Assembly: GCF_055900595.2 (NCBI RefSeq) | Contig: NZ_CM148325.1 | Direction: 5' to 3' (one strand) | Length of the DNA: 64,000 bases | Shown: positions 7,122 through 48,255 of the stretch, piece after piece | Layout: every line of letters starts with the position of its first letter | Numbering within the stretch: position 1 is the first letter of the stretch | Program-made: the position numbers and the translations under genes | The notes under the pieces: model-generated | What the model was told of the DNA's origin: nothing | Seen by the model: only the letters and a program-made list of their open reading frames with translations | The model's database searches: none

Positions 7122-7124
7122 ACC

Positions 7125-9359
7125 ATGAGCACGAGAAAATTCAGAACCCTTATCACCGACATCGGGCTGGCAAAGCTGGCCGCAACAACGGCGCCTGGCG
7201 GTAGACCTGTACGCCTTACGCACATGGCTGTAGGGGACGGCAATGGAGAGCTTCGTCAGCCGCAGAAAAACCAGACATCGCTTTACAATGAGGTTTGGCG
7301 CCAGTCTGTCAACCGCGTCTTCACCGACCCGGAGAACCCGAACCGCCTCATCGCCGAACTGGTCATTCCTCCTGAAACCGGCGGATTCTGGGTGCGTGAA
7401 ATTGGTGTGTTTGATGATACAGGTACAATGATTGCAGTAGGAAATACCGCTGAAAGTTACAAGCCCACCAGAGAGGAAGGTTCAGGGCGGGCGCAGATAT
7501 TCCGTGCAGTAATCACCGTCACCTCCGACGCCGTGGTGGAACTGGTCATGGACACAACAACAATTCTGCCGACCACGGACTACATTGATGAGAAAATGGC
7601 GGAACACGCACGTTCCCGTAACCACCCTGACGCGACACTGACAGAAAAAGGATTCACCCAACTGAGCAGCGCCACAAACAGCACCTCTGAAACACTGGCC
7701 GCCACACCGAAGGCCGTCAAGGCTGCATATGACCTTGCAGCCGGTAAAGCACCCGCCAGCCACACCCACCCGTGGAATCAGATAACTGGTGTGCCATCAG
7801 CCTCGCTGACGGCAAAAGGCACCGTACAGCTGAGCAGTGCCACAAACAGTGAGTCAGAGACTGAGGCGGCCACCCCCAAAGCGGTTAAAGCCTTACACGA
7901 TATGGTGACGAGCAAGTATACAGGACAGGATGCAACCACCGGACGCAAAGGCATCGTACAGCTGAGCAGCGCCACAAACAGCAATTCCGAAACACTGGCG
8001 GCCACACCGAAGGCAGTAAGTGATGCACTGAGCATGGCGTTCGTGAAGCCAACAACATCCCTGGGGGAAACAGACCTGAACACTCTGGGGCGTAAGGAAG
8101 ACGCGGGAGATTATTACCAGCAGAGTGACTCAGGTGCGAGAACAGACAGAAACTATCCTGTAGAGAAGGCAGGAGAGTTACGCATCCGTGTTGGTGCATG
8201 GGGATTCTGCCAGCATGAATACACGAGCTGGGATCCGCCACGAAAATTTATCAGGACAGTTACCGGAAACTTTAACGGTAACGGCCCATGGTCAGAGTGG
8301 GTGGAGGTGACAAACACAGATGCAACAACTGGACGCAAAGGCATCGTACAGCTGAGCAGCGATACAAACAGCAATTCCGAAACGCTGGCGGCCACACCAA
8401 GAGCCGTCAAGGCTGCATATGACCTTGCAGCCGGTAAAGCACCCGCCAGCCACACCCACCCGTGGAATCAGATAACAGGTGTGCCATCAGCCTCGCTGAC
8501 GGCAAAAGGCACCGTACAGCTGAGCAGTGCCACAAACAGTGAGTCAGAGACTGAGGCCGCCACCCCCAAAGCGGTTAAAGCCTTACACGATATGCTGACG
8601 AGCAAGTATACAGGACAGGATGCAACCACCGGACGCAAAGGCATCGTACAGCTAAGCAGCGCCACAAACAGCAATTCCGAAACGCTGGCGGCCACACCAA
8701 AAGCTGTTAAAGCTGCGTATGACCTTGCCAACAGCAAAGCCTCGGCAGCCCACACTCATCGCTGGGCTCAGATCACAGACGCCCCTGTTTTTTCGTCTGT
8801 TGCCCGCGTCATCATGGGTAAACAAAGCATAAAAGATATTCTTGATTACTTTGGTTTAGGAGAAGGCTCGACGCTGCCAGTTGGCGTACCCGTTCCGTGG
8901 CCTTCGTCAAGACCACCTGAGGGGTGGTTACAGTGCAACGGTGCCGCATTCACGCGTACAAAATACCCAAAACTGGCGGTGGCCTACCCTGACCTCAGGC
9001 TACCAGATTTGCGCGGGGAATTTATTCGTGGATGGGATGACCTGCGAATGATTGACAGGGGACGCTTATTGTTATCCACACAGGAAGCAACATATATTTG
9101 TACCGCCATACAGGCGTACCACGGCGTAGCGGGAGGTGCAGATATTCAGGCAGGGATTTCATTTGCATCACATGATAACGACATCATAAACATAACCCCT
9201 GATCAACCCAGAACCGGTAACGGCATCCTGTACGGCACAAAACCAGTTGACAGATGGGCAATAGCCAGAGCCGGTAAGCTGGTGAGTAATGAAAAAGACA
9301 GATGGATAGCGATCAGACCGCGCAATATCGCTTTTAATTATATTGTGAGGGCAGTTTAA
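7125..9359 (+). CDS. Tail fibre protein, P2 gpH-like, with internal repeat modules and a collar-like C-terminal domain
   Basis: 744 aa; conserved gpH-type N-terminus (MSTRKFRTLITDIGLAKLAATTAPGG...); repeated GIVQLSSATNS...ATPKAVKA motifs; C-terminus ends NIAFNYIVRAV. Confidence 0.75.
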   Translation: MSTRKFRTLITDIGLAKLAATTAPGGRPVRLTHMAVGDGNGELRQPQKNQTSLYNEVWRQSVNRVFTDPENPNRLIAELVIPPETGGFWVREIGVFDDTGTMIAVGNTAESYKPTREEGSGRAQIFRAVITVTSDAVVELVMDTTTILPTTDYIDEKMAEHARSRNHPDATLTEKGFTQLSSATNSTSETLAATPKAVKAAYDLAAGKAPASHTHPWNQITGVPSASLTAKGTVQLSSATNSESETEAATPKAVKALHDMVTSKYTGQDATTGRKGIVQLSSATNSNSETLAATPKAVSDALSMAFVKPTTSLGETDLNTLGRKEDAGDYYQQSDSGARTDRNYPVEKAGELRIRVGAWGFCQHEYTSWDPPRKFIRTVTGNFNGNGPWSEWVEVTNTDATTGRKGIVQLSSDTNSNSETLAATPRAVKAAYDLAAGKAPASHTHPWNQITGVPSASLTAKGTVQLSSATNSESETEAATPKAVKALHDMLTSKYTGQDATTGRKGIVQLSSATNSNSETLAATPKAVKAAYDLANSKASAAHTHRWAQITDAPVFSSVARVIMGKQSIKDILDYFGLGEGSTLPVGVPVPWPSSRPPEGWLQCNGAAFTRTKYPKLAVAYPDLRLPDLRGEFIRGWDDLRMIDRGRLLLSTQEATYICTAIQAYHGVAGGADIQAGISFASHDNDIINITPDQPRTGNGILYGTKPVDRWAIARAGKLVSNEKDRWIAIRPRNIAFNYIVRAV
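7705..8010. repeat. Direct repeat copy A inside the tail fibre gene (about 300 bp, near-identical to 8395-8700)
   Basis: Read by eye: the stretch gccgtcaaggctgcatatgaccttgcagccggtaaagcacccgccagccacacccacccgtggaatcagataac... recurs almost exactly. Confidence 0.6.
8395..8700. repeat. Direct repeat copy B inside the tail fibre gene
   Basis: Near-identical to 7705-8010; shorter partial copies of the GIVQLSSATNS module occur at about 7925 and 8630. Confidence 0.6.
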
Positions 9360-17420: not shown

Positions 17421-17672
17421 ATGTTCCGTTGTCCCCTATGCGGTGCATCCGCACGTATCCGCACCAGTCGCAATGAAAATGATTCAGGCACAGTTCGCCT
17501 GAAGTACTACCAGTGCAATAACCTCGAATGCGGGATCGGCTTTACCACACTGGAGGGTTTTAACAAATTCACATCAAAACGCGCCCCGTCGCCGCAGGGT
17601 ACAGAGCGGATACCGTGGGAAGATTTTCCGGGATCTCACAGGGGGAATACTCAGATTAATCTTGATATTTAA
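17421..17672 (+). CDS. ogr: Ogr/Delta-family zinc-finger late transcription activator
   Basis: 83 aa; N-terminus MFRCPLCGASARIRTSR...YYQCNNLEC carries the four-Cys Ogr signature; last gene of the P2-type late region. Confidence 0.7.
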   Translation: MFRCPLCGASARIRTSRNENDSGTVRLKYYQCNNLECGIGFTTLEGFNKFTSKRAPSPQGTERIPWEDFPGSHRGNTQINLDI

Positions 17673-17790
17673 GAACAATAATCAGGTTGAGAGGACATCA
17701 TAAGGCAAGTAGATTAACGGCAGATACTTTCCCGCAACCACGGGCAAGTATTTAATTATCCATGATGAAATATGACCTAAATTGTTTTTT

Positions 17791-17816
17791 GCCCGCCGGA
17801 AAGCGGGCATTTTTTT
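17791..17816 (+). terminator. Intrinsic terminator (GC hairpin plus T7), first of a recurring family in the array
   Basis: gcccgccggaaagcgggc then attttttt; T-run only on the plus-strand side. Confidence 0.55.
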
Positions 17817-18030
17817 ATTCTTTTGTGGTTATGGGGTCATCAGGAACCACGTGCAGATTATATTTTTGTTTTTTTGGCGTTCCTCCGGCAGCAACGAGTT
17901 CATCAATAAGACACTGACACGCCTGAACATCCCGGGCATGTCTTAGTTTCACCTTTATTGATTTAACCTTATCCTCACCGGAGGAGAAATGCAGTTCAAT
18001 CTCAATATCGTTTCTTCGGAACAATCTCAT
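17815..18030 (-). CDS. Hypothetical small protein (71 aa) encoded in the 450-bp repeat unit; only this copy is full length
   Basis: MRLFRRNDIEIELHFSSGEDKVKS...; copy at about 19.2 kb differs by two synonymous and one non-synonymous change in the first 7 codons and is truncated to about 35 codons; third copy degenerate. Confidence 0.35.
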   Translation of the reverse strand: MRLFRRNDIEIELHFSSGEDKVKSIKVKLRHARDVQACQCLIDELVAAGGTPKKQKYNLHVVPDDPITTKE

Positions 18031-18254
18031 ACGCCCCCTGAATATATCAGAAATACTAGTATCGAAAAATGAGAAAACAGTTAGACAGGAGAAACATATT
18101 AACACAAATCATTTATACCTATAGATGAAATTATAATTTCATTCATGAATATGATAGATAACTATATTGTGAACAAAATGAAAAATGGCTAAATTAAAAA
18201 TGGGCATGGAGGAATGCCCGGTTATCAATATAATGTGACGTAGATCATTGTTTT

Positions 18255-18281
18255 GCCCGCCGGAGAGCGGGCATTTTTTTT
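18255..18281 (+). terminator. Intrinsic terminator (repeat family)
   Basis: gcccgccggagagcgggc followed by a T8 run. Confidence 0.5.
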
Positions 18282-18465
18282 GCGCCTGCCATCGAGGCGC
18301 CTTCCCTGGCGCACACAAAGCAGCCCTGATTTTCCATGAAAACTTCAGGGTTGAGCTGCGGGCACAAAGTGAGTAGATTAGCTACGGGTACCTCCCCCTG
18401 ACAACAGGAAGGGTGTCCATTATCCATGATATACAAACGAAAAGTCTTGTTTTTTGCCCGCCGAA

Positions 18466-18491
18466 GCGCGGGCATTTTTTTATGCATCAGA
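18466..18491 (+). terminator. Intrinsic terminator (repeat family), immediately upstream of the hok-like locus
   Basis: gcccgccgaagcgcgggc followed by a T7 run. Confidence 0.5.
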
Positions 18492-18607
18492 CAAGATACA
18501 GCCCACCCCAACTGACACCTGAAATATTGCCGCAACAAAAAGAAACAGTTAAATTACGCGCGGGTGCCTTTCGGCTGATGGCCGGAGGGAAAACCTGAAG
18601 GCCGGAT

Positions 18608-18841
18608 GTGGAAAGGCCCCGGAAAACATTTCTGTTTAACCGAGGCCCTAACCGCATTACCTTGACAAGTGAAAGGTTAGCGCCTCTCCGGAAAAGGAGC
18701 AAGTGCTATGTCGCAAAAATCGCTTACGGCCATCACGTTCTGCGTGACGGCAATCCTCATCATCTGGATATTGCACGGTTCGCTGTGCGAAATACGGATG
18801 AGCTTCTGGGGAGCGGAGTTTGCGGCGTTCTTACAATGTAA
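18608..18841 (+). CDS. mok-like overlapping reading frame of the hok-like locus
   Basis: 77-codon frame starting at GTG 100 nt upstream of the hok-like ATG and covering it in another frame, as in hok/mok/sok modules. Confidence 0.4.
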   Translation: MERPRKTFLFNRGPNRITLTSERLAPLRKRSKCYVAKIAYGHHVLRDGNPHHLDIARFAVRNTDELLGSGVCGVLTM

Positions 18842-18848
18842 GAAGTAA
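18708..18848 (+). CDS. Hok-family type I toxin (46 aa), apparently intact
   Basis: ATG at 18708 preceded by aaggag with 8-nt spacing; MSQKSLTAITFCVTAILIIWILHGSLCEIRMSFWGAEFAAFLQCKK has a single TM helix, the Hok SLCEIR motif and the E(F/V)AAF motif; too short for the ORF track. Confidence 0.6.
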   Translation: MSQKSLTAITFCVTAILIIWILHGSLCEIRMSFWGAEFAAFLQCKK

Positions 18849-18947
18849 GGAAACCGCGACGGGGGAGCAATCCCCCGTCAATCGGTTGCCAGGGTAAGGT
18901 CGATAAGGCACCCTATCTCACAGACATGAACAACAAACCCGCAGCAT

Positions 18948-18979
18948 AAAAACTGCGGGTTTTCTTTTTGGTGTCCTCA
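18948..18979 (+). terminator. Intrinsic terminator downstream of the hok-like gene
   Basis: cccgcag cataaaaa ctgcggg followed by tttctttttgg. Confidence 0.5.
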
Positions 18980-20612
18980 CCGACTTGAAACAGTGATCAG
19001 ACTATAAGACAAAGCCCGCAATGTTGCGGGCTTACTCTACCTCTCGAAAATGTGGTCACTGCGTGGACATACGCTGATACAAATCCTTTATATCAATAAA
19101 TTAAATCTTTGTTTTTTTCATCAACAATGATTTAACCTTATCCTCACCGGAGGAGAAATGCAGTTCAATCTCAATATCGTTTCTGTGGAACAGCCTCATA
19201 AGACAACCTCCTGAATTCATCAGAAACACAGTCAACTGAAAACCAGAAAGCAGACAAACAGTGGACACACATTAATACAAATCATTTATACCTATAGATG
19301 AAATTGCAGTTTCATCTATAACATGACAGGTAACAATATTGTGAAAAAACTCAAAACTCGTTAGATTAAAGACGGACAGAGCAATGCTACTTTATCAATA
19401 ACATGTAACCTGTACTTCCTTATTTTGCCCGCCGAAGCACGGGCATTTTTTTTGCGCCTGCCATCGAGGCGCCTTCCCTGGCGCACACAAAGCAGCCCTG
19501 ATTTTCCATGAAAACTTCAGGGTTGAGCCAAAAGCACAAAGACAGTAGATTAACCACGGGTGCCTTCCACCTGACAACAGGAAGGGTGTCCAGTATCAAT
19601 GACAGACAACTCACATTGCTGTTTTGCCCGCCGGAAAGCGGGCATTTTTTTATTCTTTTGTGGTTATTGGGTCATCAGGAACAACATGCAGATTATGCTT
19701 TGATTTTTTTGGTGTTATTACAGCAGCAACGAGTTTATTAATAAGACACTGACATGCCTGAACATCCCTGACATATCATAATTTCACTTTATTTTTTTAG
19801 CTTGTCCTTTCTGGAGCAGAAATATCTCAACATCGTTTCTGTGGAACAACCTCATTTGCCCCTGAATGTATCATAAATATCAGCATCGGAAAACCAACAG
19901 CAATACAGAAGAAACATGTTAATGCAAATCACTTATACCTATAGATGAAATTACAGTTTTGTTCATAAATATGATAAGTAACTATATTGTGAATAAAATG
20001 AAAACTAGCTAAATTAAACGTGGGCATGGTGGAATGCCTCGTAATCAATAATACATGATCCGTACTTCCTTGTTTTGCCCGCCGGAAAGCGGGCATTTTT
20101 TTGGCGGTTACCATCGCCTCACCTTCCTGGTTCACATGAAGCAACCCTGATTTTCCATGAAAACTTCAGGGTTGAGACAAAAGCACAAAGACAGTAGATT
20201 AACCACGGGTACCTTCCACCTGACAACAGGAAGGCTGTCCAGTATCAATGACAGACAACTCACATTGCTGTTTTGCCCGCCGGAAAGCGGGCTTTTTTTG
20301 GCAGTTATCATAGCCGCACCTTCCTGGCACATATGAAGCAACCCTGATTTTCCATGAAAACTTCAGGGTTGAGACAAAAGCACAAAAACAGTAGATTAAC
20401 CACGGGTGCCTGCCACCTGACAACAGGAAGGGGTGTCCATTATCCATGATATACAAACGAAAAGTCTTGTCTTTTGCCCGCCAAAGCGCGGGCATTTTTT
20501 TATGCATCAGACAAGATACAGCCCACCCCAACTAACACCTGAAATATTGCCGCAACAAAAAGAAACGGGTGCCTTTCGGCTGATGGCCGGAGGGAAAACC
20601 TGAAGACCGGAT

Positions 20613-20795
20613 GTGGAAAGGCCCCGGAAAACATCTGTGTTTAACCGAGGCCTGACCCTTCCTACCGTGACAAGTGGAAGGTTAGCGCCTCTTTGTAAAA
20701 GGAGCAAGCGCTATACCGCAAAAAACGATTATTGTTGGCATTTTATGCCTGACAATAACCCTGGTCATCTGGATGGTCCACGATTCGTTATGTGA
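20613..20795 (+). CDS. mok-like frame of the second (decayed) hok-like locus
   Basis: 60-codon frame from GTG, homologous to 18608..18841. Confidence 0.3.
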   Translation: MERPRKTSVFNRGLTLPTVTSGRLAPLCKRSKRYTAKNDYCWHFMPDNNPGHLDGPRFVM

Positions 20796-20853
20796 ATTCA
20801 GCTTTGATATCTGAGGAGCGCGTTTTGCGGCGTTCTTGCAGTGTAAACCGTAA
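20713..20853 (+). pseudogene. Decayed hok-like toxin gene (start codon lost, in-frame nonsense codon)
   Basis: Alignment to copy 1 by eye: ATG is ATA at 20713-20715 and TGG is TGA at 20812-20814; remaining frame IPQKTIIVGILCLTITLVIWMVHDSLCEFSFDI* still shows the Hok core. Confidence 0.5.
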
Positions 20854-21003
20854 GAAACCGCAGCGGGGGAGAAATTCCCCGCTATCCGGTTGTTGGGGTG
20901 GGCCGATATGGCGCCCTTTCCCTGTAGAGACAAAACAAAAAACCAGATTTGCCCGCCATTGAGAGGGCTTTTTTGTCACCCTCACCAGTGAGGGCATCAT
21001 CAT

Positions 21004-24936: not shown

Positions 24937-27900
24937 TTAGTCAAACGGCGGTGGGGCCAGCACTTCACGATTACCGTTGTGCCCCTGTTCGCTGACAATC
25001 CCTTGCGCTTCCATCTGTTCGATAATACGCGCTGCACGGTTATAACCAATGCGGAACTGACGCTGTACGCCTGAAATTGACGCTTTGCGTTTTTCAATGA
25101 CAAACTGCACCGCCTGATCGAACAACGGATCCAATTCTTCAGCGCCATCGAAACCACCCGCACCACCTTCGCTTTCGCTGTCGGAGGTGATGCCGTCAAC
25201 ATACTGTGGGCGACCACGCGCTTTCCAGTCCTGCACCACGGCATGAACTTCCTGATCGCGAACAAAAGCACCATGAACACGTACCGGCAACGTGGAGTTC
25301 GGCCCAGAGTAAAGCATATCCCCCATACCCAGCAGTGATTCCGCGCCAGCCTGATCAAGAATGGTACGGGAGTCAATCTTGCTGGAAACGGTAAAGGCAA
25401 TACGGGTCGGAATATTCGCTTTAATCAGACCAGTAATAACATCAACCGATGGACGCTGCGTTGCCAGTACGAGGTGGATACCTGCAGCACGGGCTTTTTG
25501 CGCCAGACGTGCTATCAGCTCTTCCACTTTTTTACCTACCGTCATCATCAGGTCGGCAAATTCGTCCACCAACACCACAATGTACGGTTCTTTTTTCAGC
25601 ACCGGATGCTGGGCATCCATACTGTCACCCGGCTTCCAGTACGGGTCTGGAATCGGACGCATCATGCGATCGGCTTCAGCAATTTTTTCGTTATAACCCG
25701 CCAGATTACGCACACCCAGTGCAGACATCAGTTTATAACGACGCTCCATCTCGTTAACACACCAGCGCAGCGCGTTGGCGGCATCTTTCATATCGGTAAC
25801 AACTTCCGTTAACAGGTGCGGAATGCCTTCATAAACCGAAAGCTCCAGCATTTTCGGGTCGATCATGATGAAACGCACATCTTCTGGCTGTGCTTTATAA
25901 AGCATGCTCAGGATCATCGCGTTCACACCGACAGATTTACCGGAACCGGTAGTCCCCGCAACCAACAAGTGCGGCATCTTCGCCAGATCGGCAACCACCG
26001 GCTCACCGGCGATATCTTTACCCAGCACCACGGTTAATGGCGACGGATTATCGCGGAATTTGGCGTTATCCAAAACTTCGCGCAGATAAACGGTTTGTCG
26101 TTTTTTATTCGGTAACTCCAGACCTACATAAGGTTTGCCAGGAATAACTTCAACGACACGCACCGCGACCGTCGAAAGTGAACGGGCAAGGTCACGAGAC
26201 AAGTTAGAAATGCGCGCCGCTTTTACGCCCGGTGCCAGATTCAATTCAAAGCGAGTGATAACCGGTCCCGGAGAGTAATTGACGACATCGGCTTTAATAC
26301 GGAAATCAGCCAGACGCGCTTCCACCAGACGCGCCATTTGTTCAAGCGCAAAGGTATCTACCGGTTCCACTTCGCTCGGTGGCGGTGTCAGCAAATCCAG
26401 AGAAGGCAGCGGCGTCGTCGGTTTATGCAACGGACGGCTGTCGCCATTACGCATCAACAGCGGATGAAGCAGGGTATCCTGCGGCTGCGGCGCAACCGGT
26501 TGTTGTGGCTGCTGATACTGCGGCTGCGGCGCAACTGGCTGTTGCGGCTGCTGATATTGCTGCTGTGGTGCAACCGGCTGTTGCGGCTGCTGATATTGCT
26601 GCTGCGGTGCAACCGGTTGTTGTGGCTGCTGATATTGCTGCTGCGGCGCTACCGGTTGTTGTGGCTGCTGGTATTGCTGCTGCGGCGCTATCGGTTGTTG
26701 CGGCTGCTGATACTGCGCCTGTGGCACTACCGGTTGTTGCGGCTGCTGTACAGGTTCAACAATTGGCGTAAACAGCGGTTCGTGTGGCCCATCATCCAGC
26801 AAAGCTTTCATTGGCGAAAATTCGAAATCATCCAGCGAGAACGGATTCGCCCCAGCCGGTTGTTCGCCCGAATAACGTTGCTGTTGAGTTTGAGCAAACT
26901 GACGAGCCAGTTCTGCCTCTGCTGCAGCATCTGTATCTTCTGCGTTGACTGGCACATCATGTTGATACTGTTCGCCATAGCGTTGCTGCTGCGTCTGGGC
27001 GAACTGACGCGCCAGTTCATCCTGCTGCATCGCATCGATTTCATCATCGTTATACTGATCGCCGGAATCGTACTGATTGCGCTGGGCTTCACGGGCTTTT
27101 TCTTCTGCTGCACGCTGTGAGGGCAGCTTAATGCCATATGACGCCAGTTCACGACGAGTTGGCACCCGGATACGTTTCGGTCGTGGCAACTGCGGGCCAA
27201 TCCCCTCTTTAACCTGCGGACGCGGTCCACCGCTATTTGCCAGACTGAAGACTGGTGCGGCAACGGTTGCGGCAGCCCCCGTCGCCAATGTCGCTTTTTT
27301 CACGCCAGATGCCAGCGGAGAAACAGCGGCAGCGGCTTCTACTGGAGGTACTGCTGTAACAGAAGGTGCTTTCAGCGATGATTTAATCGGTTCTGGTTCT
27401 TTAACCGGTTCAGGAATCGGTTGATACCAGGCCGCAAGTTGTTCACGTTCACGGGCACGCTTCTCTTCCACTTCTTCAAAATAGTAAAGCGGCGGACGTG
27501 CGGGTTTTGTCTCTTCTACAACGGGTTCAGGCTCCGCAACAGGCTGCTGTTCAACGGATTGCGGCTGTTGGTATAACGGTTCTTGAGCGGCTGGCTGCTG
27601 ATAAGTTTGCTCCGTCTGGTATGTAGACTGTGGAGCAAAAGTGGATTGCTGCTCTTCGGCTTGCCAGGCGTTACCTGCCACCGGTTGTTCTGGCGCAGGG
27701 GCGTAATACGGCTGTTGCGCAGACTGTTCCGGCGCAGGAGCGTAGTAAGGTTGTTGCACAGGCTGTTCAGCTGCAGGCGCATAATACGGCTGCTGTGGCT
27801 GTACAGGTTGTTGCAGCGGCTCATTATATTGCACTGCAGGCTGCGCATATTGTGGCTGCTGAGGGTAACCTTCCGGTGCAGGAGCAATAACCGGCTCTCC

Positions 27901-29004
27901 CGTTTGTGGCCCCGGTACAGGCTGCCAGGCTACTGTAGGTTGCGCAGGTGGAACATCAACAGAGGCAACTGGCGGCGTCTGAGTCACAGGTTCAACCGGT
28001 GCAGCCCAGCTTTGTGTCGCCGTGGTAGCAGCAGCTGCTACAGCAACAGGTTCGGTAATTGGCGCACCGTTTAATAATGGATCGTATTCGTCATATTCTG
28101 GCTGCGTTGCACGATTGCCCGAAAAGAGGACGTCGTCAGGGTCGGCAGCCACACCGCGTGCAGTGTAGGTAATCTCTTCTTCATCATCCATCCGCTTACC
28201 GGAGAACAACGCAGCATCTGTTTGCCGCCCCATCGGATTAATGAATTTTTCCGCCAGACGTTTACGACGTGCTAGCGCGCCGCGAAGAATACGGGCACGG
28301 CGCGATTCATGCTGTTTGCCGCGATTTTCATCTTCATATTCTTCGTCGTCTTCATACTCATCTTCATCGACCCAGGTATCATCGCGACGGGTACGATTAC
28401 TGGCGAAGGTGAGAATGTTTAAAATCCAGCCGCCGAGTTTTTCAGCAATGGTCACCCATGACCAACCGGTGAACAGCGTCAGGCCCGCTGCCCAAACGCA
28501 GAGCAGCGCAATAGTTCCCCCGCTACTGTGTAGCAGTGGTTGTAGCGTAGTGCTTAGTAAGCTGCCGATGACGCCACCAGAGGCAAAATACCAGATATCG
28601 TCAGCGTTGATTGCCGCCAGACCACAAGAGGTAAGGATGAGCGCCAAAACGCCAATGATGCGTAGCGAAACGGCAAAATAATCAATGTATTCGTCACTGG
28701 ACTGATGACGCCAGGCAAACCAACAGCCGCCGACGATAATGACGGGAATGGTGTAAGCCATCACGCCAAAAATAAAGAACAGCGTATCTGCCAGCCACGC
28801 ACCGGGCATTCCACCTAAATTATGGATAGGCTCATGCCAGGCCGTTTGCGACCAGCTGGGGTCCGAAGGGTTAAAGCTTAGTAAGGCAGCCATCAACCAG
28901 ACGGCAAACAGGACAATAAGGATCAGCAACGCCTCCAGAAGGCGGCGGCCGCTACTTAACTTTGTCAATGTGACTTCTTTGTCTTCAGTGTATTCCTGGC
29001 TCAA
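24937..29004 (-). CDS. ftsK: DNA translocase FtsK (N-terminal membrane domain, Pro/Gln-rich linker, C-terminal motor and gamma domain)
   Basis: 1355 aa; Walker A GTTGSGKS; long [13 protein letters not shown] linker repeats. Confidence 0.95.
26455..26760. repeat. Tandem nucleotide repeats encoding the FtsK PQ-rich linker
   Basis: Units such as ccggttgttgtggctgctgatattgctgctgcggcgc recur about 8 times. Confidence 0.6.
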
Positions 29005-29082
29005 GAAAGGCTCTCCAGGTTACAGGCTTTTCCTGCCCGATGCTAAAACGGACAACAGTACCAGGTTACCCCAGTACTGTTG

Positions 29083-46175: not shown

Positions 46176-46871
46176 ATGTTCAGAAAATTAGCAGCTGAAT
46201 GTTTTGGTACTTTCTGGCTTGTTTTTGGTGGCTGTGGTAGTGCCGTACTGGCCGCAGGCTTCCCGGAATTAGGCATTGGTTTTGCCGGCGTGGCGCTGGC
46301 ATTCGGTTTAACCGTTCTGACGATGGCCTTCGCTGTTGGTCATATTTCTGGTGGTCATTTTAACCCGGCGGTCACTATTGGCTTATGGGCTGGCGGACGT
46401 TTTCCGGCAAAAGAAGTCGTTGGCTACGTAATTGCCCAGGTTGTCGGCGGTATTGTTGCAGCGGCGCTGCTGTATTTAATTGCCAGTGGTAAAACGGGAT
46501 TTGACGCGGCAGCCAGCGGTTTTGCTTCTAACGGTTATGGCGAGCATTCACCAGGCGGTTATTCCATGCTTTCCGCGCTGGTAGTTGAACTGGTATTGAG
46601 TGCAGGTTTCTTGCTGGTGATCCACGGCGCAACCGACAAATTCGCTCCGGCGGGTTTTGCACCAATTGCCATTGGTCTGGCATTAACGCTGATTCACTTA
46701 ATCAGTATTCCGGTGACTAACACTTCCGTTAACCCGGCGCGCAGTACTGCGGTTGCCATCTTCCAGGGCGGCTGGGCGTTAGAACAACTGTGGTTCTTCT
46801 GGGTAGTGCCAATTATCGGCGGTATTATCGGTGGTCTGATTTACCGGACTCTGCTGGAAAAACGTAATTAA
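46176..46871 (+). CDS. aqpZ: Aquaporin Z
   Basis: 231 aa from [21 protein letters not shown]; two NPA motifs (HFNPAVT, VNPARS). Confidence 0.95.
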
Positions 46872-46880
46872 TTAACGCAG

Positions 46881-46910
46881 AAGGCCTGGCGCAATGTCAG
46901 GCCTTTTTTA
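46881..46910 (+). terminator. aqpZ intrinsic terminator
   Basis: aggcctg gcgcaatgt caggcct followed by tttttta. Confidence 0.55.
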
Positions 46911-47355
46911 AATATATTGATTCATCTTCCTGTTGCGCTCCTTGATGTGTTAAGCCACATATAGTCACTGGCGCAGGGAGCGCGCAGGGGGCGGCCAATC
47001 GCCGCCGCCCCCTGCCCCCCCGGGCTCTGGCGAACAAAATCGCCGCTGCGCGGTGCCCTCGACTTATCCCTTGCGGCTACCGGGTCGGGCGCGAGGTAAC
47101 ATCCCGGTAAAACGCGCCCTCAGCCCACATCCATGTGGGCTGCCCCGGCCTTCAGGGAACGCCTCGGCGATTTTGACGCCACCAACACCGGTGCGGTTTG
47201 TAATTAAAGCGCAAGAATATCTTTAAATGAAAATGAATACCCTACCGATCCTTATGCATAACATTTCCTTTTAATTGCAACTTTACTCGTCCTTCCGCTT
47301 TCAGTAGTGTGTCATCGCGCATTTCGACTTCTTTCTTTGCAAGGACTGGTTTTTC

Positions 47356-48255
47356 ATGTTTTCTGGGCTGTTAATCATTCTGGTTCCCCTGATTGTGGGT
47401 TACCTCATTCCGCTTCGCCAAAAAGCTGCATTAAAGGTTATTAATCAGCTATTAAGCTGGATGGTTTACCTTATTCTCTTTTTTATGGGTATCAGTCTGG
47501 CGTTTCTCGATAACCTCGCCAGTAACCTGTTGGCGATTCTGCATTATTCCGCCGTCAGTATTACCGTTATTTTACTGTGTAATATTGCCGCCCTGATGTG
47601 GCTGGAGCGAGGCCTACCGTGGCGCAACCACCATCAGCAAGAAAAACTCCCGTCACGTATTGCGATGGCGCTGGAGTCCCTCAAGCTCTGCGGTGTGGTG
47701 GTGATTGGCTTTGCTATTGGCCTTAGCGGATTAGGTTTCTTACAACACGCTACGGAAGCCAGCGAATACACGTTAATTCTGCTACTTTTCCTCGTCGGTA
47801 TTCAGTTGCGCAATAATGGCATGACCTTAAAGCAGATTGTCCTTAATCGCCGGGGAATGATTGTCGCTGTGGTGGTGGTGGCCAGTTCTTTAATTGGTGG
47901 TTTAATTAACGCCTTTATTCTTGATCTTCCCATCAATACCGCGCTGGCAATGGCTTCCGGTTTCGGCTGGTATTCTCTTTCCGGTATTTTATTGACCGAA
48001 TCTTTTGGTCCGGTAATCGGGAGCGCGGCGTTTTTTAATGATTTGGCCCGTGAGCTGATTGCTATTATGTTGATCCCTGGGCTGATTCGCCGTAGCCGCT
48101 CGACTGCACTGGGCTTATGCGGTGCAACCTCGATGGATTTCACCCTGCCCGTTCTTCAACGTACTGGCGGGCTGGATATGGTCCCGGCGGCGATTGTTCA
48201 CGGTTTTATTCTCAGCCTGTTAGTACCTATCCTCATCGCCTTTTTCTCCGCGTAA
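47356..48255 (+). CDS. lysO: Lysine exporter LysO (YbjE)
   Basis: 299-aa polytopic membrane protein in the conserved position between aqpZ and hcp. Confidence 0.85.
   Translation: MFSGLLIILVPLIVGYLIPLRQKAALKVINQLLSWMVYLILFFMGISLAFLDNLASNLLAILHYSAVSITVILLCNIAALMWLERGLPWRNHHQQEKLPSRIAMALESLKLCGVVVIGFAIGLSGLGFLQHATEASEYTLILLLFLVGIQLRNNGMTLKQIVLNRRGMIVAVVVVASSLIGGLINAFILDLPINTALAMASGFGWYSLSGILLTESFGPVIGSAAFFNDLARELIAIMLIPGLIRRSRSTALGLCGATSMDFTLPVLQRTGGLDMVPAAIVHGFILSLLVPILIAFFSA

What the first reader, a model, noticed from the sequence alone, without database searches (positions are those of the whole stretch)
46915..47340. GC-rich, palindrome-containing element in the aqpZ-lysO spacer
The spacer begins with a highly GC-rich stretch (about 46970-47200) containing a long imperfect palindrome (cagggggcggccaatcgccgccgccccctg) and several shorter G/C runs, unlike the AT-rich promoter region that follows (47200-47350). 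It has no ORF of note and does not match the REP consensus seen at the end of the window. It could be a structured RNA, a different extragenic repeat family, or a remnant of an inserted element.
Basis: seen in the sequence. Interest (0 to 1): 0.35.

Follow-up and report, generated by a model that had tools for sequence, protein, structure and literature searches.

The report
TRIP1a repeat between aqpZ and lysO
The GC-rich block is the E. coli "TRIP1a" intergenic repeat, first described in 1999 and of unknown function. Comparison across enteric bacteria shows a strongly conserved fold with two hairpin loops that look like binding sites for the regulator CsrA.

Summary
A block of about 275 bp at 46931-47205 is 65% G+C and holds a perfect 12-bp hairpin (46984-47015).

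It is not new. It is the TRIP1a repeat (Rudd 1999; Li et al. 2024). The core is 95.7% identical to the K-12 copy in the same spacer. Matching DNA occurs in 5425 of 5426 complete E. coli genomes, with a median of 3 places per genome.

What I add:
- **Distribution.** I found copies in at least nine genera of Enterobacteriaceae.
- **Fold.** 52 copies share a multi-helix fold: 64 predicted pairs, 33 with compensatory changes, 97% of cells paired against 39-44% in slid controls.
- **Strand.** G-U pairs and folding energy favour the strand antisense to aqpZ.
- **Loops.** On that strand two adjacent hairpins carry CANGGAYG loops. This is the CsrA/RsmA site consensus and the architecture of Rfam TwoAYGGAY, although scores stay below Rfam's threshold.

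No promoter, transcript or CsrA crosslink was found. This copy's second loop is mutated, and it points away from both neighbouring genes.

A published RNA-polymerase-binding promoter for lysO has its -35 box inside the element. E. coli lineages carry the element in either orientation at the same loci, which I could not explain.

Verdict: a known repeat. The RNA and CsrA reading is an untested hypothesis.

The parts
46931..47205 (-). TRIP1a conserved core (275 bp, 65% G+C). The strand given is the one on which the fold is best supported.
   Evidence: nhmmer and alignments of 52-54 copies; 95.7% identical to K-12 TRIP1a; composition; position agrees with Li et al. 2024.
46921..47222 (.). Extent of DNA homology to other TRIP1 copies in E. 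coli, such as the dusC-yohP copy. The 10-25 bp beyond each end of the core are weakly conserved.
   Evidence: megablast query positions 50-351 of 46872-47355; alignments A1 and A2.
46984..47015 (-). Perfect 12-bp hairpin with an 8-nt loop.
   Evidence: The stem covaries across genera, e.g. GC to AU in 17 sequences at one pair (helix 14).
46935..46983 (-). Terminal helix (46935-46944 with 46974-46983, GGAGCGC/GCGCUCC) enclosing a variable small hairpin (46945-46960).
   Evidence: helix 15 has 4 of 7 pairs with compensatory changes and 97.8% of cells paired.
47016..47196 (-). Large domain closed by long-range helices (47035-47045 with 47165-47175; 47028-47032 with 47177-47181; 47016-47026 with 47184-47196). 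It holds the two GGA hairpins.
   Evidence: helices 2-6 (99% of cells paired in helices 2 and 3, with compensatory changes).
47121..47142 (-). Hairpin 1: 9-bp stem with loop sequence CAUGGAUG (47128-47135), GGA at 47130-47132. It matches both AYGGAY and CANGGAYG.
   Evidence: The loop is identical in 52/52 copies, but it was part of the scan pattern, so this is biased. The stem covaries (helix 7, 5 of 8 pairs compensatory).
47087..47119 (-). Hairpin 2: 7-bp GC stem and an inner loop region UACCGGGAUGUUA, GGA at 47102-47104. In this strain the loop reads CCGGGAUG, one base off CANGGAYG (K-12 has CAGGGAUG).
   Evidence: 51/52 copies have CAnGGAyG; the window copy is the exception; C at 47106 where K-12 has A.
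46881..46909 (+). aqpZ intrinsic terminator (AAGGCCTG...CAGGCCTT plus a T run). It is flanking context and not part of the conserved core.
   Evidence: sequence. It is absent from the inverted allele of O157, J2 and E69. Rudd, as quoted, places TRIP1a 31 bp downstream of this terminator.
47173..47204 (+). Promoter-like pair for lysO: TTGACG (47173-47178, inside the element) and TGTAAT (47199-47204, at its edge). I count a 20-nt spacer.
   Evidence: Genomic SELEX with RpoD holoenzyme lists TTGACG-19-TGTAAT for ybjE in the ybjE-aqpZ spacer (PMC3946193). I placed it on the sequence myself. The simple consensus scan did not call it.

Best explanation
**What it is (shown).** The block is the TRIP1a copy of the TRIP1 intergenic repeat family, sitting 60 bp after the aqpZ stop codon and about 150 bp before the lysO start codon. 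I found copies of the family in at least nine genera of Enterobacteriaceae. All copies keep one multi-helix fold through many compensatory base changes.

**Which strand (inferred).** The fold belongs to a single strand, most likely RNA, read antisense to aqpZ in this window.

**How it may work (inferred).** The fold works as a scaffold that displays two adjacent hairpin loops of sequence CANGGAYG. This is the recognition motif of the dimeric RNA-binding regulator CsrA. The element would then be a portable two-site CsrA-binding module. It would act only when a neighbouring transcript reads through it in the right orientation.

**This particular copy.** It is probably inert in that sense. It has no upstream gene in the same direction and no recognisable promoter, and its second loop is mutated. 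Its likely local effects are at the DNA level: it supplies the -35 box of a lysO promoter, and it serves as a substrate for chromosomal inversions.
For: **Identity.**
- Dispersed repeat in 5425 of 5426 E. coli genomes, median 3 places per genome.
- Core 95.7% identical to the K-12 copy in the same spacer.
- The literature description matches in position, length and G+C.

**Family.** 94 nhmmer hits in fetched loci from Escherichia, Klebsiella, Raoultella, Enterobacter, Leclercia, Silvania, Atlantibacter, Pseudocitrobacter and Mangrovibacter.

**Fold.**
- 64 predicted pairs, 33 with compensatory changes.
- 97.0% of cells paired against 38.8-44.4% when partners are slid.
- Covariation score 0.323 against 0.039-0.065 in slid controls; 0 of 500 shuffles reach it.

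**Strand.**
- G-U pairs: 52 cells in 21 pairs on the window minus strand, against 23 cells in 9 pairs on the plus strand.
- Minus strand folds 13 kcal/mol better, with z -5.6 against -4.0.

**Loops.**
- Hairpin 2 loop is CAnGGAyG in 51 of 52 copies, and it was not part of the scan pattern.
- 11 divergent copies found without the pattern keep CAnGGAnG loops on entirely different stems.
- CANGGAYG in a hairpin loop is the published RsmA/RsmF (CsrA family) site (bioRxiv 10.1101/315341).
- Rfam TwoAYGGAY gives repeated same-strand sub-threshold hits. That family was itself proposed to bind CsrA (PMC4333381).

**Local DNA-level effects.** Promoter assignment; inversions between TRIP1 copies.
Against: **No sign of expression.**
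- No sigma-70 promoter or terminator consensus on either strand.
- I found no published transcript.
- The transcription-start-site and sRNA catalogues I wanted are not held.

**No sign of CsrA binding.**
- The E. coli CsrA CLIP-seq tables that are held mark ybjE and dusC as not bound.
- No number beginning 9149-9153 in the held files is a K-12 coordinate at TRIP1a; I do not know whether the held files list peaks by coordinate.

**Orientation is inconsistent.**
- The proposed RNA sense follows a gene in the same direction in only 28 of 44 cases.
- E. coli carries either orientation at the same locus.

**The element is dispensable.** Natural alleles delete the two hairpins (Ecol743) or more (SCU484).

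**Other weaknesses.**
- Rfam's threshold for TwoAYGGAY is never reached (best 34.5 bits against 43).
- CANGGAYG alone is not enriched in the window (22 matches against 17.5 expected).
- The strand test by pair positions is only p = 0.04, and a folded DNA strand would give the same signal.
Confidence: 0.5

Rival explanations
1. TRIP1 is a selfish, non-autonomous DNA repeat, MITE-like or REP-doublet-like, with no host function. The fold and loop motifs would be kept because a folded single DNA strand is what an unidentified mobilising enzyme recognises, or because all copies descend from a few structured master copies.
For: - Copy number varies from 1 to 8 places in E. coli and reaches 13 in one K. 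pneumoniae chromosome.
- Presence/absence varies at alx-sstT.
- Both orientations occur at three loci.
- Internal deletions are tolerated.
- Tail-to-tail pairs occur in several genera.
- Copies sit among REP-type repeats in Klebsiella and Enterobacter flanks.
- No promoter was found and no CsrA crosslink.
Against: - No terminal inverted repeats or target duplications were recognised.
- No associated transposase was seen. Phage hits are absent and plasmid hits are chromosomal. The IMG/VR hits I checked lie in host flanks.
- Copies are fixed at orthologous loci from E. coli to E. albertii.
- The conserved loops match a host RNA-binding protein's motif exactly, which this view leaves as a coincidence.
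Confidence: 0.3
2. At this locus the element matters as DNA. Its right end provides the -35 box (TTGACG) of a constitutive lysO promoter, and the repeat is a substrate for homologous recombination that inverts large chromosome segments. This can be true alongside either view of the family.
For: - Genomic SELEX with RpoD holoenzyme assigns TTGACG-19-TGTAAT to ybjE in this spacer. The hexamers map to 47173-47178 and 47199-47204.
- The motif TTTTGACGCC is conserved in E. coli-type copies.
- Li et al. report 156 rearrangements, 88% of them between TRIP1a and TRIP1c.
Against: - The promoter sequence in that paper is a prediction within a bound fragment.
- My consensus scan did not call it, and the spacer is 20 nt.
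- In the inverted allele the same motif points into aqpZ, yet lysO is retained.
- This view does not explain covariation across nine genera.
Confidence: 0.3
3. The plus strand is the functional RNA. The element would be a structured 3'-UTR block that stabilises or terminates the transcript of the gene upstream of it (aqpZ here), as REP elements do.
For: - In 34 of 45 copies the element's plus orientation lies 25-250 nt after the stop codon of a co-directional gene.
- The plus strand also folds well (z -4.0).
Against: - Here aqpZ has its own terminator before the element.
- G-U pairs favour the other strand, 52 against 23 cells.
- The plus strand folds 13 kcal/mol worse and its ensemble is poorly defined: MFE frequency 0.0004, and the centroid is 18.6 kcal/mol above the MFE.
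- The conserved loops read CAUCCAUG on this strand, which matches no known motif.
Confidence: 0.08

Closest known systems
TRIP1 repeats of E. coli (TRIP1a-e; Rudd 1999, Res Microbiol 150:653; Li et al. 2024, PMC10888264)
   Same: Same element, same locus, same length (about 266 bp) and same G+C (62-65%). The core is 95.7% identical to K-12 TRIP1a.
   Different: Nothing differs as to identity. The papers I could read treat it as an E. coli repeat. They do not report copies in other genera, covariation, a strand, or the GGA loops. This strain's copy has 12 substitutions against K-12, one of them in the second loop.
Rfam RF01731 TwoAYGGAY RNA (Weinberg 2010; human gut, gamma-Proteobacteria, Clostridiales)
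   Same: Two adjacent hairpins with AYGGAY-type hexaloops inside an outer helix. cmscan aligns the whole model to the same strand of several copies.
   Different: - Scores of 26.4-34.5 bits never reach the gathering score of 43.
- The second loop is ANGGAY, with a pyrimidine at position 2 in only 13 of 52 copies.
- TRIP1 is about 100 nt longer, with two extra 3' helices.
- Clostridial matches to the TRIP1 pattern are chance.
CsrA/RsmA-sequestering RNAs (CsrB, CsrC, McaS; RsmV, RsmY and RsmZ of Pseudomonas)
   Same: GGA presented in hairpin loops with the consensus CANGGAYG. McaS works with as few as two GGA sites.
   Different: - Those are expressed sRNA genes with their own promoters and terminators.
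- CsrB has 18 GGA motifs.
- TRIP1 has two loop sites and no recognisable transcription signals.
- TRIP1 is multi-copy and shows no CLIP signal in the held tables.
Other enterobacterial intergenic repeats: REP/BIME, ERIC (IRU), BoxC, RSA (characterised from my own knowledge)
   Same: - Multi-copy and confined to intergenic DNA, often just after genes.
- Either orientation occurs.
- Strongly self-complementary.
- Insertion polymorphisms between strains.
   Different: - No sequence similarity to REP.
- TRIP1 is much longer (about 270 bp against 35-150 bp).
- It has a branched fold rather than one hairpin.
- Copy number is very low.

Membership tests
TRIP1 repeat family (TRIP1a) | Sequence homology to K-12 TRIP1a (the published types share 84-94% identity) | tested here: met
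   95.7% identity over 279 aligned core positions to NC_000913.3 915003-915289; 93.3% over the whole spacer.
TRIP1 repeat family (TRIP1a) | Locus: downstream of the aqpZ terminator (70 bp after the aqpZ stop in K-12) and 158 bp upstream of the ybjE/lysO start | tested here: met
   aqpZ ends at 46871, the core starts at 46931, and lysO starts at 47356. 47356 minus 158 gives 47198, which lies within the core's right end. The K-12 spacer is 10 bp longer.
TRIP1 repeat family (TRIP1a) | About 266 bp, 62-65% G+C, very stable predicted fold | tested here: met
   65% G+C. Minus strand: MFE -148 kcal/mol and ensemble energy -150.9 kcal/mol. Li et al. give -144 kcal/mol for TRIP1a.
Rfam RF01731 TwoAYGGAY | Score at or above the curated gathering threshold (43 bits) | tested here: not met
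   26.4 bits for the window copy; 30.9 and 33.1 for other E. coli copies; 32.7 and 34.5 for a neighbouring module in Leclercia. Klebsiella copies give no hit at E <= 1.
Rfam RF01731 TwoAYGGAY | Two adjacent hairpins whose terminal loops read AYGGAY, enclosed by an outer stem | tested here: inconclusive
   Hairpin 1 is AUGGAU in 52/52 copies (biased by the scan pattern). Hairpin 2 is ANGGAY in 51/52, with a pyrimidine at position 2 in only 13/52. The outer helix is present and covaries.
CsrA/RsmA-binding or sequestering RNA | At least two GGA motifs in hairpin loops matching CANGGAYG | tested here: met
   True for the family. In this window's copy only hairpin 1 matches exactly (47128-47135). 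Hairpin 2 reads CCGGGAUG.
CsrA/RsmA-binding or sequestering RNA | The RNA strand carrying the sites is transcribed | tested here: inconclusive
   No promoter or terminator consensus; no transcript found in the searchable literature; catalogues not held. RNA-seq data cannot be read with these tools.
CsrA/RsmA-binding or sequestering RNA | Physical binding by CsrA | not testable with these tools
   Only indirect evidence, and it is negative. The CLIP-seq tables of PMC5694010 that are held mark ybjE and dusC as not bound. No number beginning 9149-9153 in the held files is a K-12 coordinate at TRIP1a.
REP/BIME | REP consensus hairpin (matched by the REP-derived Rfam family naRNA4) | tested here: not met
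   No naRNA4 match in 46700-47500 at E <= 10. REP copies in L002 and L003 score 51-56 bits.
Transposon-derived MITE | Terminal inverted repeats, target-site duplication, and a related autonomous element with a transposase | tested here: not met
   - No inverted terminal repeats or duplications were seen at the ends of copies compared across loci.
- No larger parent element: no phage match, and the plasmid matches are chromosomal DNA.
- The IMG/VR matches I checked lie in host flanks.
- The exact ends could not be fixed, because no clean empty site was found.

The most novel reading that the evidence does not exclude
TRIP1 would be an undescribed family of structured RNA, absent from Rfam 15, found in at least nine genera of Enterobacteriaceae. 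It would be related in design to TwoAYGGAY. Its job would be to place a two-site CsrA clamp on whichever transcript runs through it. That would make it a mobile, orientation-dependent CsrA-response module. The orientation flips seen at aqpZ-lysO, dusC-yohP and alx-sstT would then switch which neighbouring gene is put under CsrA control.
Probability: 0.2. Interest if true: 0.6.

Novelty: already known. Interest (0 to 1): 0.3.

Why it matters
As a sequence feature it is ordinary. It has been a catalogued E. coli repeat since 1999, K-12 has it, and nothing in this window is special.

It still has some value, because no function has been assigned in 25 years and three results here make the question testable:
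- The fold is under selection across the genera sampled, so it is not only a GC-rich accident.
- The strand can be inferred.
- The most conserved bases are two hairpin loops identical to the CsrA recognition motif.

If CsrA binds, TRIP1 would be a new kind of CsrA target, carried on a repeat. It would also be a reason to re-map CsrA CLIP data with repeat reads kept.

The element also matters in practice as a hot spot for megabase inversions and as part of the lysO promoter region.

Tried and rejected
- **Rfam.** No family reaches threshold. The weak cow-rumen-3, SpF03 and HOTAIR matches are noise.
- **Phage or plasmid parent.** There are no phage matches. The plasmid matches are chromosomes or chromosomal segments filed as plasmids: H30 is TRIP1b between putP and efeU.
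- **IMG/VR.** Six pattern matches, five of which are TRIP1. The four I inspected lie in host DNA next to a prophage or IS (rpoD-mug, aqpZ).
- **Small ORF with a Shine-Dalgarno sequence.** On the minus strand the element ends AAGGAGCGCAAC...ATG. I rejected this because GGAGCGC is one arm of the covarying terminal helix, and the ATG and peptide are not conserved among copies (read).
- **Protein coding.** Rejected because of single-base indels between lineages.
- **Empty site to define the ends.** None was found.
  - Spacers of 319-322 and 414 bp are internal deletions.
  - The 456-457 bp spacers are the inverted allele.
  - K-12's alx-sstT spacer holds unrelated repeats instead.
- **Sequence link to clostridial TwoAYGGAY.** Pattern matches in Clostridia MAGs are chance. 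TRIP1 copies in 'Sporobacter', 'Desulfacinum' and 'Bacillus' assemblies look like contamination.
- **Promoter and terminator scans.** Nothing was found.
- **CsrA CLIP supplements.** No signal.
- **TSS and sRNA catalogues.** PMC4288677 and PMC3166833 are not held.
- **lysO and ArgP literature for a mapped start site.** Nothing usable.
- **Large inversions as the cause of the in-place flips.** An exchange between two inverted copies cannot flip a copy relative to both of its flanks. This is my own reasoning; the question is left unexplained.

Full report
**1. What is in the sequence**

aqpZ occupies 46176-46871 on the plus strand. Its terminator hairpin and T run follow at 46881-46909. lysO starts at 47356.

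Between them, G+C rises to 0.64-0.73 over 46950-47199 and falls to 0.34-0.45 afterwards. The quoted palindrome is at 46985-47014 and forms a perfect 12-bp stem with an 8-nt loop.

The 275-nt core (46931-47205) folds far better than shuffled sequence on both strands:
- minus strand: -148 kcal/mol, z -5.6
- plus strand: -134.6 kcal/mol, z -4.0

Only mechanical ORFs of 46 and 57 aa overlap the region.

**2. It is a dispersed repeat that already has a name**

Megablast of the spacer against 5426 complete E. coli genomes gave these results:
- Matches in 5425 genomes, with a median of 3 and up to 8 places per genome.
- K-12 carries the same spacer at 93.3% identity.
- Some records' best match covers only positions 50-351 of the query.

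That best match lies between dusC and yohP. A partial copy lies after putP. The K-12 RefSeq record annotates nothing in the aqpZ-lysO spacer.

A full-text search led to Li et al. 2024 (PMC10888264), which cites Rudd 1999. These are the TRIP1 repeats, described as follows:
- TRIP1a lies after the aqpZ terminator and 158 bp before ybjE (lysO).
- TRIP1b lies after putP, and TRIP1c after yohI (dusC).
- TRIP1d (alx-sstT) and TRIP1e (copA-ybaP) occur in some strains.
- They are 146-273 bp long, 62-65% G+C, and predicted to fold stably.
- They cause large inversions.
- Their function is unknown.

The window core is 95.7% identical to K-12 TRIP1a.

**3. I found the family in other genera**

blastn found copies in Klebsiella (13 places in one chromosome), K. 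aerogenes and Citrobacter. It found none in phages.

I scanned one genome per species with an exact pattern taken from the conserved centre, then ran an nhmmer profile. This gave 94 hits in Escherichia, Klebsiella, Raoultella, Enterobacter, Leclercia, Silvania, Atlantibacter, Pseudocitrobacter and Mangrovibacter. Hits outside the family are either chance pattern matches or enterobacterial contigs in mis-binned assemblies.

**4. The fold is conserved by compensation**

I aligned 52 distinct copies with a mean column identity of 71%. RNAalifold predicts 64 pairs, 33 of which keep pairing through changes on both sides. Counting pairs on that structure gave:

| Measure | Structure | Control |
|---|---|---|
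| Cells forming a standard pair | 97.0% | 38.8-44.4% (partners slid 1-3 columns) |
| Pairs with compensatory changes | 33 | 5-13 (slid) |
| Covariation score | 0.323 | 0.039-0.065 (slid) |
| Shuffles reaching the observed score | 0 of 500 | n/a |

The fold has five parts, listed 3' to 5' on the minus strand:
- a terminal helix (46935-46944 with 46974-46983);
- the 12-bp hairpin (46984-47015);
- a large domain closed by long-range helices (47016-47045 with 47165-47196);
- inside that domain, two adjacent hairpins at 47087-47119 and 47121-47142.

Single-base indels between lineages exclude a protein-coding reading.

**5. Which strand**

Across 60 well-aligned pairs, G-U pairs occur in 52 cells at 21 pairs on the window minus strand. 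The plus strand has 23 cells at 9 pairs. The binomial p is 0.001 by cells, which are not independent, and 0.04 by pair positions.

The minus strand also folds 13 kcal/mol better and has a well-defined ensemble.

The minus strand, antisense to aqpZ and lysO here, is therefore the more likely folded strand. A folded DNA strand would give the same signal.

**6. The loops**

On the minus strand hairpin 1 ends in CAUGGAUG in all 52 copies. That loop was part of my scan pattern, so its constancy is partly built in.

Hairpin 2 was not in the pattern. It reads CAnGGAyG in 51 of 52 copies, and its closing pairs switch between A-U and G-C.

Eleven divergent copies were found only because they lie next to a pattern hit. 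Each keeps one to three CAnGGAnG loops on completely different stems.

CANGGAYG presented in a hairpin loop is the published binding consensus of RsmA/RsmF, the CsrA family. From memory, it also matches the CsrA SELEX consensus RUACARGGAUGU.

Rfam's TwoAYGGAY model aligns end to end on the same strand of several copies at 26-33 bits. It hits a second two-hairpin module next to TRIP1 in Leclercia at 33-34.5 bits. All of these are below the 43-bit threshold. TwoAYGGAY was itself proposed to be a CsrA-binding RNA.

So TRIP1 works like a TwoAYGGAY or CsrA-decoy design, but it fails the membership test for RF01731. Pattern matches in Clostridia are chance.

**7. Evidence against an expressed CsrA-binding RNA**

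- No promoter or terminator consensus on either strand.
- No transcript in the searchable literature.
- The held CLIP-seq tables mark ybjE and dusC as not bound. No number beginning 9149-9153 in the held files is a K-12 coordinate at TRIP1a. Repeat reads may have been discarded in that study.
- The proposed RNA sense follows a co-directional gene in only 28 of 44 cases. The most constant feature is that its 3' end faces the 3' end of a convergent gene, in 34 of 45 cases.
- Natural alleles delete exactly the two hairpins (Ecol743) or more (SCU484).
- In this window the copy has no co-directional upstream gene, and its second loop has C instead of A at 47106. CANGGAYG therefore matches only once in it, and the motif as such is not enriched in the window.

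**8. Local and DNA-level aspects**

Genomic SELEX with RpoD holoenzyme lists a constitutive ybjE promoter, TTGACG-19-TGTAAT, in this spacer. I place the hexamers at 47173-47178, inside the element, and 47199-47204, at its edge. The element may therefore contribute the lysO -35 box.

E. coli lineages carry TRIP1 in opposite orientations at the same locus, with collinear outer genes:
- aqpZ-lysO: the window, K-12 and E. albertii have one orientation; O157, J2 and E69 have the other. The second group lacks the aqpZ terminator.
- dusC-yohP.
- alx-sstT.

The 20-45 bp next to the core are weakly similar only after reverse-complementing. The flipped unit is therefore larger than the core. By my reasoning, exchanges between distant inverted copies cannot produce this. 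I leave it unexplained.

Every aqpZ-lysO spacer I looked at holds a TRIP1 copy or a remnant. Li et al. count TRIP1a in only 70% of genomes, and I could not tell how they scored the inverted allele.

**9. Verdict**

Identity is certain and already known. The best-supported account is a structured repeat whose fold is selected on the strand antisense to aqpZ and which displays two CsrA-type loops.

Whether it is an RNA that binds CsrA (my preferred mechanism, about 0.2-0.3) or the recognition structure of a selfish DNA element (about 0.3) cannot be decided without expression and binding data. This particular copy is probably inert as RNA. It is relevant mainly as part of the lysO promoter region and as a recombination substrate.

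Noticed in passing
window 46875-47250 compared with L126, L129, L040; L002 with L003; L007 with L081: TRIP1 sits in opposite orientations at the same three intergenic loci in different E. coli lineages. The outer genes are collinear, and the immediate flanks are similar only after reverse-complementing. Large inversions between copies do not explain this.
   Followed up: partly
L128 (strain Ecol_743) and L127 (strain SCU-484), aqpZ-lysO spacers: These are natural deletion alleles of TRIP1a. One removes exactly the two GGA hairpins (414-bp spacer). The other removes most of the large domain (322-bp spacer).
   Followed up: partly
L110:12961-13022 (+), L108:6955-7016 (-); also L036, L093, L043, L074, L075, L087, L088: In Leclercia a second two-GGA-hairpin module lies about 65 nt beyond the right end of TRIP1 on the other strand (TwoAYGGAY 32.7-34.5 bits). 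In Atlantibacter, Silvania and Pseudocitrobacter, TRIP1-like copies occur as pairs with their right ends facing each other.
   Followed up: partly
window 47173-47204: A published RpoD-holoenzyme-bound promoter for ybjE/lysO (TTGACG-19-TGTAAT) has its -35 box inside TRIP1a. By my count the spacer is 20 nt.
   Followed up: partly
window 17421-20900: An Ogr/Delta-like zinc-finger ORF (17421-17672) is followed by about 3 kb packed with families of direct repeats. The units end in a GC hairpin plus a T8 terminator, and there are almost no long ORFs. This may be a cargo region at the end of a P2-like prophage.
   Followed up: no
window 7122-9356: A 745-aa ORF has 300-nt periodic internal repeats (7629-8778). 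Its N-terminus looks like a P2-type tail fibre, judged from memory only.
   Followed up: no
window 26441-26791: Seven copies of a 39-bp tandem repeat lie inside a 1360-aa ORF (24940-29019, minus strand). Its C-terminus looks like FtsK, judged from memory only, so the repeat would be its Pro/Gln-rich linker.
   Followed up: partly
L073, L012, L111, L035: Near-identical Klebsiella-type or E. coli-type TRIP1 copies sit on contigs binned as Sporobacter termitidis, Desulfacinum, Bacillus sp. and an unclassified Proteobacteria MAG. This is probably contamination of those assemblies.
   Followed up: no
L004 (pEC16-AU-EG1, 243 kb): A replicon labelled as a plasmid carries the chromosomal block putA-putP-TRIP1b-efeUOB-phoH.
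   Followed up: no
literature (bioRxiv 10.1101/315341): In P. aeruginosa the RsmA/RsmF-sequestering sRNA RsmV, which has CANGGAYG loops, is encoded in the mucE-aqpZ spacer, next to aqpZ. TRIP1a also lies next to aqpZ in E. coli. This is probably a coincidence, and I did not test for homology.
   Followed up: no
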